Source: the human T2T-CHM13v2.0 reference genome, Homo sapiens. Taken from it: 64,000 nt of DNA. The translations under genes and the position numbers were made by a program. Location of the stretch: the NCBI RefSeq assembly GCF_009914755.1, contig NC_060933.1, one strand, 5' to 3'. Below, piece by piece: positions 18,735 through 18,797 of this stretch (the first letter of the stretch is position 1; the number at the start of each line of letters is the position of its first letter). A model generated the notes under the pieces. That model was not told the origin of the DNA, did no database searches, and saw nothing but the letters and a program-made list of their open reading frames with translations.

Positions 18735-18797
18735 AGTCTTGTAAAGGATCCAAAAGAAAGAGGGAGCAAAGGTTCTGACATCCAGCCAACTAGCGTG
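18735..18797 (+). CDS. PBX3: Putative alternative in-frame cassette exon (63 nt, SLVKDPKERGSKGSDIQPTSV)
   Basis: ctacattttcttgccgggcatacag| acceptor and GTG|gtaagt donor. Length is a multiple of 3, phase 0/0 matches the flanking exons, and there is no stop codon. Confidence 0.65.

What the first reader, a model, noticed from the sequence alone, without database searches (positions are those of the whole stretch)
18735..18797. Hidden in-frame cassette exon that would split the PBX3 homeodomain recognition helix
Seen: deep in the 25-kb intron is a 63-nt segment with a CAG acceptor and a consensus GTG|GTAAGT donor. It is stop-free in the phase joining exon 5 (...ITVSQ) to exon 6 (VSNWFGN...) and would add SLVKDPKERGSKGSDIQPTSV. 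Known: this junction lies at the start of homeodomain helix 3, and PBX binds MEIS/PREP through its N-terminal PBC domains. Inference: inclusion gives an NMD-immune protein with impaired DNA/HOX binding but intact cofactor binding, a possible dominant-negative. The acceptor abuts a MIR tail, suggesting repeat-assisted exon birth. I recall a longer annotated PBX3 transcript that may contain it, so novelty needs checking; its function is the open question.
Basis: partly seen in the sequence, partly recalled or inferred. Interest (0 to 1): 0.8.

Follow-up and report, generated by a model that had tools for sequence, protein, structure and literature searches.

The report
Annotated PBX3 homeodomain-splitting cassette exon
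A real but already annotated 63-base optional exon of the human PBX3 gene would insert 21 amino acids into the start of the protein's DNA-reading helix, but it evolves fast and nothing yet shows that the resulting protein matters.

Summary
Window 18735-18797 is a 63-nt, stop-free, phase 0-0 segment with a cag| acceptor and a GTG|gtaagt donor. It encodes SLVKDPKERGSKGSDIQPTSV between ...ITVSQ and VSNWFGN.... It is not hidden: the hub's RefSeq table lists it as an exon of other PBX3 transcripts.

Sequence alone is only mildly unusual. 6.7% of 300 random introns hold an equally good pseudo-exon.

- **Paralogues:** PBX1, PBX2 and PBX4 have no counterpart in the same intron.
- **Orthologue:** a giant panda gene model carries a homologous 19-aa insert, 11 of 21 residues identical, while both flanking exons are identical.
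- **Upstream repeat:** an old dispersed repeat ends at 18699, 34 nt before the acceptor. The exon body is not repeat.
- **Structure:** in AlphaFold models from one alignment, the canonical homeodomain folds (pLDDT 76-87) with helix 3 starting 3 residues before the junction. The panda insertion form loses the domain (pLDDT 30-55).
- **Counter-precedent:** HNF1 homeodomains tolerate 21 extra residues nearby.
- **Literature:** ten searches found nothing on this exon.

Most likely it is a minor, weakly constrained isoform with impaired DNA binding. A selected dominant-negative role is unproven.

The parts
4851..4986 (+). PBX3 constitutive exon encoding homeodomain helices 1-2 and the first three residues of helix 3; ends in phase 0 with ...ITVSQ
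   Evidence: hub annotation table; helix positions from the control model
18495..18699 (+). Copy of an old dispersed interspersed repeat. I call it MIR from recall; no tool named it. It ends 34 nt upstream of the acceptor AG.
   Evidence: It matches unrelated loci on chr4 and chr6 at 76-80% identity and aligns with them. A profile built from 4 copies hits 13 places in the window: 2 of the copies it was built from and 11 others.
18700..18734 (+). Acceptor region: interrupted polypyrimidine tract followed by cag
   Evidence: pyrimidine fraction 0.64, longest pyrimidine run 7
18735..18797 (+). 63-nt alternative cassette exon, phase 0-0, encoding SLVKDPKERGSKGSDIQPTSV; purine fraction 0.63
   Evidence: hub table lists it as an exon of other PBX3 transcripts. 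It is unique in the genome at DNA level and peptide level.
18798..18803 (+). Donor gtaagt. With the preceding G it is the only G|GTAAGT in the intron. A second in-frame GT lies 3 nt upstream, at 18795.
18840..18844 (+). GCATG motif 43 nt downstream of the donor (RBFOX-type motif; a lead only)
18920..18924 (+). GCATG, preceded by T (so TGCATG), 123 nt downstream of the donor (a lead only)
   Evidence: 2.6% of 130-nt intron windows hold 2 or more GCATG
30062..30227 (+). PBX3 constitutive exon encoding the rest of recognition helix 3 ([14 protein letters not shown]...) and the C-terminal helix
   Evidence: hub annotation table

Best explanation
18735-18797 is a genuine, already annotated alternative cassette exon of PBX3. 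It is specific to PBX3 and has no counterpart in PBX1, PBX2 or PBX4. It is at least as old as the human-carnivore ancestor.

Inclusion inserts 21 hydrophilic residues between homeodomain positions 44 and 45, three residues into recognition helix 3, and leaves the reading frame intact. The weak acceptor and the fast-evolving peptide point to a minor, weakly constrained isoform.

If the isoform is translated, it keeps the PBC (MEIS/PREP-binding) region. Its homeodomain is most likely destabilised, so DNA binding and HOX-cooperative binding would be reduced.

Shown: the exon's anatomy, frame and junction position; its absence from paralogues; the panda orthologue. Inferred: low inclusion, loss of DNA binding, and lack of a selected role.
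For: - Anatomy and frame.
- Annotation as an exon of other PBX3 transcripts: hub table.
- PBX3-specific: the equivalent introns are 4,319 nt in PBX1, 251 nt in PBX2 and 4,359 nt in PBX4. They hold no similar peptide or DNA; the best tblastn E-value is 0.98, on the wrong strand.
- Orthologue: of 120 listed PBX3 proteins, 84 span the junction. 68 are canonical and 16 carry an insert. Only the panda insert SLVKVPEERGRGTGLRQTS is clearly homologous (z 7.65, 0 of 2000 shuffles reach it).
- Weak constraint: 11 of 21 residues are identical and the lengths are 19 versus 21 aa. The exon 5 and exon 6 peptides are identical between human and panda.
- Weaker acceptor than the constitutive exons.
- Fold: both models used the same 42-sequence alignment. 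The canonical control has helices at 169-181, 190-200 and 204-253, with homeodomain 10-residue block pLDDT of 81, 77, 87, 82, 76. The panda insertion form has homeodomain blocks of 55, 51, 49, 51, 30, 31, 30, 35, and [12 protein letters not shown] is not helical. PBC-region confidence is similar in the two models.
- Pfam Homeodomain score falls from 57.6 to 46.0 bits and the KN model splits into two stretches. PBC is retained.
Against: - No expression data (junction reads, long reads, peptides) could be consulted, so 'minor isoform' is inferred only from site strength and divergence.
- Both AlphaFold models are poor overall (mean pLDDT 42.8 and 49.7). The alignment is shallow and has almost no rows covering the insert. 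The protein folded was the panda form, not the human one. AlphaFold is also not a reliable judge of insertions.
- HNF1A and HNF1B homeodomains carry 21 extra residues between helices 2 and 3 (passage of PMC2211742). Their solved structure shows an extended loop there, in a DNA-binding domain (passage of PMC8988010).
- All DNA-contacting residues of helix 3 stay contiguous on the exon 6 side.
- Two GCATG motifs lie within 123 nt downstream, and the exon is purine-rich. Both are compatible with regulated rather than noisy inclusion.
- The frame is preserved in panda, though that model was probably kept by the annotators because it was open.
- Panda is the only non-human orthologue I could see.
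Confidence: 0.55

Rival explanations
1. One reading: the cassette is a selected, regulated switch. It produces an NMD-immune PBX3 that still binds MEIS/PREP through its PBC domains but cannot bind DNA or HOX. It would act as a dominant negative, like PBX1-d or homeodomain-less Hth/MEIS isoforms.
For: - The frame is preserved and PBC retained.
- The homeodomain loses model confidence compared with the control.
- The exon and its frame are present in panda.
- Two GCATG motifs lie 43 and 123 nt downstream; 2.6% of intron windows do as well.
Against: - Only 11 of 21 residues are conserved with panda and the length differs, while the flanking exons are identical.
- The acceptor is weak.
- Ten literature searches found no report.
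- No expression evidence could be seen.
- A disrupting insert needs no conserved sequence, so divergence is not decisive.
Confidence: 0.2
2. The insert is tolerated as a long surface loop between helix 2 and a helix 3 re-capped by the insert's C-terminal ...PTSV, as in HNF1-type homeodomains. The isoform would still bind DNA, perhaps with altered affinity, specificity or partner choice.
For: - HNF1A and HNF1B homeodomains have 21 extra residues between helices 2 and 3 and show an extended alpha2-alpha3 loop in solved structures.
- The insert is hydrophilic and Gly/Ser/Pro-rich.
- The DNA-contact part of helix 3 remains intact on exon 6.
- Pfam still scores the homeodomain above its cut-off, 46.0 bits against 22.9.
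Against: - The insertion point is inside helix 3, three residues after its start in the control model, not in the loop.
- AlphaFold did not model a folded domain with a looped-out insert for the panda form.
- None of the 10 matched PDB sequences of PBX, Exd or MEIS homeodomains has an insert here.
Confidence: 0.15
3. It is not a biologically used exon. It is a chance pseudo-exon promoted to annotation by automated pipelines, which retain frame-preserving inserts at this phase-0 junction.
For: - 6.7% of random introns give an equally good pseudo-exon, and two other such loci lie in this window.
- 15 of the 84 junction-spanning vertebrate PBX3 models carry unrelated inserts at the same junction. 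This suggests the junction attracts model artefacts or lineage-specific noise.
- The panda model is labelled only as a hypothetical protein. By recall, that annotation came from homology projection plus de novo prediction.
Against: - RefSeq lists the exon (hub table).
- It holds the only G|GTAAGT in 25 kb.
- The homologous sequence is open, in frame and splice-compatible in panda.
Confidence: 0.08

Closest known systems
PBX1-d (PBX1d) splice isoform
   Same: A PBX-family splice isoform that keeps the N-terminal partner-binding region and has a compromised homeodomain. It is described as dominant negative (passage of PMC10884236).
   Different: [quoted passage not shown] Here an exon is added and the whole homeodomain sequence is kept but interrupted. 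PBX1's equivalent intron holds no homologous cassette.
HNF1A/HNF1B atypical homeodomain
   Same: 21 extra residues in the helix 2 - helix 3 region of a homeodomain (passage of PMC2211742; extended alpha2-alpha3 loop, passage of PMC8988010).
   Different: In HNF1 the extra residues are constitutive, lie between the helices, and belong to a DNA-binding fold. Here they are optional and lie three residues inside helix 3. They were not modelled as a tolerated loop. No sequence relationship was tested or is claimed.
Homeodomain-less TALE isoforms (Drosophila Hth MH-only isoforms; mouse MEIS1-HdL)
   Same: Alternative splicing of a TALE cofactor gives forms that keep the partner-binding domain without a working homeodomain (passage of PMC7392893; start of the abstract of PMC13379096 in the listing).
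   Different: Those isoforms omit the homeodomain altogether. This one interrupts it in frame.
Exonised MIR elements
   Same: An old dispersed repeat lies immediately upstream of the acceptor.
   Different: The repeat ends 34 nt before the acceptor. The exon body and donor are unique sequence, so the exon is not an exonised repeat. The name MIR is recalled, not given by a tool.

Membership tests
Annotated alternative cassette exon of PBX3 | Listed in the reference annotation at these coordinates | not testable with these tools
   The hub's RefSeq table in the task lists 18735-18797 under 'exons of other transcripts'. I could not see which accession it belongs to, or whether that is NM or XM.
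Annotated alternative cassette exon of PBX3 | AG acceptor, GT donor, frame-preserving length, no stop | tested here: met
Annotated alternative cassette exon of PBX3 | Transcript evidence (junction reads or cDNA) | not testable with these tools
   No RNA-seq or EST resource was available. Ten paper searches found no report.
Exonised MIR / repeat-derived exon | Exon body or a splice site lies within the repeat | tested here: not met
   The repeat profile match ends at 18699. The alignment with the chr4 and chr6 copies fades at about 18701. The stretch 18705-18830 is unique in the genome.
DNA-binding-deficient dominant-negative PBX/TALE isoform | Retains the PBC (MEIS/PREP-binding) domain | tested here: met
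   The panda insertion protein scores 203 bits for PBC. The human upstream exons lie outside the window.
DNA-binding-deficient dominant-negative PBX/TALE isoform | Loss of DNA and HOX binding | tested here: inconclusive
   Homeodomain pLDDT is 30-55 in the insertion form against 76-87 in the control from the same alignment.
HNF1-type homeodomain with extended helix2-helix3 loop | Extra residues lie between helix 2 and helix 3 and the three-helix fold is kept | tested here: inconclusive
   The junction is 3 residues inside helix 3. The fold is not kept in the model of the panda form, but model quality is low.
Poison (NMD) exon | Introduces a frameshift or premature stop | tested here: not met
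   63 nt, no stop, downstream frame unchanged
Recursive-splicing exon | Exon starts with GT so that a donor is rebuilt after the first splicing step | tested here: not met
   The exon starts AGTCTT. The defining feature is recalled from the literature.

The most novel reading that the evidence does not exclude
The cassette is a regulated switch, for example RBFOX-dependent in neurons or muscle. It would convert PBX3 from a DNA-bound HOX cofactor into either a MEIS/PREP-sequestering antagonist or a homeodomain with an HNF1-like 21-residue loop and new specificity. It could be far older than mammals: a trout PBX3 model carries a 22-aa insert at the same junction that resembles the human one (z 4.6, p 0.0005 uncorrected). 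However, panda-trout (z 0.06) and trout-cyprinid (z -0.17) comparisons show no similarity.
Probability: 0.15. Interest if true: 0.6.

Novelty: already known. Interest (0 to 1): 0.3.

Why it matters
PBX3 is a cofactor of HOX and MEIS proteins in development and, by recall, in HOXA9/MEIS1-driven leukaemia. An endogenous in-frame isoform with a disabled or altered homeodomain could titrate MEIS/PREP or change target choice. PBX1-d is reported to act in that way in lupus susceptibility.

The exon is already in the reference annotation, so the open question is only whether it is used and selected. On present evidence it looks like a minor, fast-evolving isoform, so its importance is modest unless expression data show regulated inclusion.

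Tried and rejected
- **Protein database search with the 21-aa peptide:** I repeated it with the window's own 52-aa open frame across the exon, 'longer' proteins only. Of 4 candidates, none reached E <= 10.
- **Region search around the panda insert:** at E <= 0.001 it returned only the panda protein itself among 1151 candidates. I set the threshold too strictly to rank weaker insert-bearing proteins.
- **Exhaustive search of 1.84 billion representatives with the 52-aa frame:** it returned only an identical 52-aa entry.
- **Deep (fish) homology:** human-trout similarity (z 4.6) is not corroborated by panda-trout (z 0.06) or trout-cyprinid (z -0.17). I treat it as probably chance.
- **Paralogous exon in PBX1, PBX2 or PBX4:** none found.
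- **Known RNA families in the intron:** none at gathering score.
- **Tandem repeats at the exon:** none. Three rows lie at 18019-18093 only.
- **Recursive-splice and poison-exon readings:** rejected from the sequence.
- **Ten paper searches:**. Passages were read. None mentions this cassette. No supplementary files were opened, so splicing-event tables there could still list it.
- **Cross-species DNA:** no vertebrate genome other than the window's own was available, so conservation of the splice sites could not be checked.

Full report
**1. Observation**

The segment 18735-18797 is preceded by ...ctacattttcttgccgggcatacag and followed by gtaagt. It is 63 nt long and has no stop. It translates to SLVKDPKERGSKGSDIQPTSV.

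The upstream PBX3 exon (4851-4986) ends in phase 0 with ...KKCSITVSQ. The downstream exon (30062-) begins [14 protein letters not shown]. Inclusion therefore adds 21 residues in frame and creates no premature stop.

**2. Is it more than chance?**

- G|GTAAGT occurs once in the 25,075-nt intron, at this donor. 20 of 1313 GT dinucleotides match the 9-nt donor consensus at 7 or more positions.
- Of 410 AG...donor pairs 30-300 nt apart, 145 are multiples of three and 11 are also stop-free. This candidate has the best polypyrimidine score of the 11.
- Open frames are cheap here. 29% of 63-nt windows are stop-free in a given frame, and the frame is open over 18687-18842.
- In 300 Markov-1 random introns of the same size and dinucleotide content, 6.7% held at least one pseudo-exon meeting the same criteria. 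The real + strand of the window has two further such loci, at 32760-32837 and 61013/61070-61129.
- The acceptor is weaker than those of the constitutive exons. Its pyrimidine fraction is 0.64 against 0.68-0.82, and the tract is interrupted by gccgggcata.

The sequence pattern alone would not establish an exon.

**3. What makes it real, and what makes it known**

The hub's RefSeq table for this window lists 18735-18797 among the exons of other PBX3 transcripts. The exon is therefore annotated, not hidden. I could not see the accession or its evidence level.

Independent support comes from a protein database search.
- A search with the exon 6 peptide listed the best 120 of 2269 PBX3-like proteins.
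- I sorted these 120 by what lies between TVSQ and VSNWFGN.
- 68 have the canonical junction and 16 carry an insert.
- 32 lack the upstream exon (fragments or read-through open frames) and 4 lack the exact downstream motif.
- One insert, from a giant panda gene model (P0060, 'hypothetical protein PANDA_004427, partial'), reads SLVKVPEERGRGTGLRQTS. It is clearly homologous to the human cassette (global alignment z 7.65; 0 of 2000 shuffles reach it).
- The other 15 inserts are unrelated, or at best marginal.

**4. Age and constraint**

Human and panda share 11 of the 21 cassette residues, and the lengths differ (21 against 19 aa). The flanking exon 5 and exon 6 peptides are identical in the two species. 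The cassette sequence therefore predates the human-carnivore split and has stayed open. Its protein sequence evolves far faster than the rest of the homeodomain.

A trout model carries a 22-aa insert at the same junction that resembles the human one (z 4.6, p about 0.0005 before correcting for 16 inserts tested). Panda against trout (z 0.06) and trout against cyprinid (z -0.17) show nothing. I regard deep homology as unsupported but not excluded.

**5. Paralogues**

In the window's own assembly, the exon DNA and peptide are unique. The same homeodomain intron is much shorter in the paralogues than the 25,075 nt of PBX3: 4,319 nt on chr1, 251 nt on chr6 and 4,359 nt on chr19. The chromosomes are those of PBX1, PBX2 and PBX4 by recall. 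None of these introns contains a similar peptide or DNA. The best tblastn E-value is 0.98, for 8 residues on the opposite strand. The cassette is specific to PBX3.

**6. The upstream repeat**

The stretch 18495-18699 belongs to an old dispersed repeat.
- It matches unrelated loci on chr4 and chr6 at 76-80% identity and aligns with them and with a copy at about 14170-14340.
- A profile built from these four copies finds 13 matches in the window: 2 of its own source copies and 11 others, on both strands.
- I call it MIR from recall. No tool named it.
- It ends 34 nt before the acceptor AG. The polypyrimidine tract, exon body and donor are unique sequence.

'Abuts a MIR tail' is roughly right. 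'Repeat-assisted exon birth' is not shown, and this is not an exonised repeat.

**7. Position in the protein**

Solved PBX1 and Exd homeodomain chains (1b72, 1puf, 1lfu, 1du6 and others; 10 distinct sequences matched) align to the panda protein with a 19-residue gap exactly at the insert. No solved chain has an insert there.

In an AlphaFold model of a canonical PBX3 (P0116, 3 mismatches to the panda protein outside the insert), the homeodomain helices are 169-181, 190-200 and 204-253. Helix 3 starts at V204 and the exon junction is Q206|V207.

**8. Likely consequence**

Both models used the same 42-sequence alignment and settings.
- Canonical control: homeodomain block pLDDT of 81, 77, 87, 82, 76.
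- Panda insertion form: 55, 51, 49, 51, 30, 31, 30, 35, with [12 protein letters not shown] modelled as coil.
- PBC-region confidence is similar in both, so the loss is specific to the homeodomain.
- Pfam still detects PBC and the homeodomain in the insertion form. The Homeodomain score falls from 57.6 to 46.0 bits and the KN model splits in two.

This is weak evidence that the insert destabilises the domain. Both models are poor overall (mean pLDDT 42.8 and 49.7), the alignment is shallow, and the human isoform itself could not be submitted because it is a joined sequence.

There is a counter-precedent. HNF1A and HNF1B homeodomains have 21 extra residues between helices 2 and 3 (passage of PMC2211742). 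Their solved structure shows an extended loop there, within a DNA-binding domain (passage of PMC8988010).

**9. Regulation (lead only)**

GCATG occurs 43 and 123 nt downstream of the donor. 2.6% of 130-nt intron windows have two or more. The exon is 63% purine, and 14.6% of 63-nt intron windows are at least as purine-rich. G-runs follow the donor. These features are compatible with RBFOX- or enhancer-dependent inclusion but prove nothing.

**10. Literature**

Ten full-text searches and passages of eleven papers gave no description of this cassette. No supplements were opened, so splicing tables there might list it.

[quoted passage not shown] Homeodomain-less Hth and MEIS1 isoforms are similar in logic.

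**11. Verdict**

This is a real, already annotated, PBX3-specific in-frame cassette exon. It is at least boreoeutherian in age, has a weak acceptor and evolves fast at the protein level. My estimates for what it does:
- 0.55: a minor isoform whose homeodomain is impaired and for which no selected role is shown.
- 0.15: an HNF1-like tolerated loop.
- 0.08: an annotation artefact.

Expression and cross-species DNA data, which I could not reach, would decide between these.

Noticed in passing
Protein models P0038-P0120 (other vertebrates), at the junction equivalent to window 4986|30062: Besides panda, 15 of the 84 junction-spanning vertebrate PBX3 models carry unrelated inserts of 10-52 aa at exactly this phase-0 junction. 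They come from snake, turtle, duck, cat, vole, mouse relatives, carp and salmonids. Several start with V and look like donor read-through. The junction seems to attract lineage-specific exons or annotation artefacts.
   Followed up: partly
window 4987-30061 compared with L002, L003, L004: The homeodomain intron is 25,075 nt in PBX3. The same position holds 4,319 nt, 251 nt and 4,359 nt in the chr1, chr6 and chr19 paralogues. The PBX3 intron also holds a RefSeq 'enhancer' at 20497-21012 (hub table).
   Followed up: no
window 32389-32477: The hub table lists an exon of another transcript that ends at 32477, one base before the constitutive exon end at 32478. The base after it is T, followed by gtgagt, so that end would not sit on a GT donor. 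It could be an alignment or annotation oddity, or a frame-shifting variant.
   Followed up: no
window 32760-32837 and 61013/61070-61129, + strand: Two other loci meet the same pseudo-exon criteria as the cassette: YAG acceptor with pyrimidine fraction 0.64 or more, G|GTAAGT donor, length a multiple of three, stop-free. The first lies in the PBX3 intron before the last exon. The second lies downstream of the gene.
   Followed up: no
window 18687-18842: The 52-aa open frame across the cassette starts with ATG. An identical 52-aa entry exists in the 1.84-billion-protein representative library, presumably an automatic ORF call on human-derived DNA.
   Followed up: no
window 18795-18803: The donor is a tandem GTGGTAAGT, with two in-frame GT sites 3 nt apart. 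Use of the upstream one would drop the final Val. The panda model lacks that residue.
   Followed up: no
window 18019-18093: Short TG/TA-rich tandem repeats lie about 650 nt upstream of the cassette: period 10, then (GT)9, then (TA)8.
   Followed up: no
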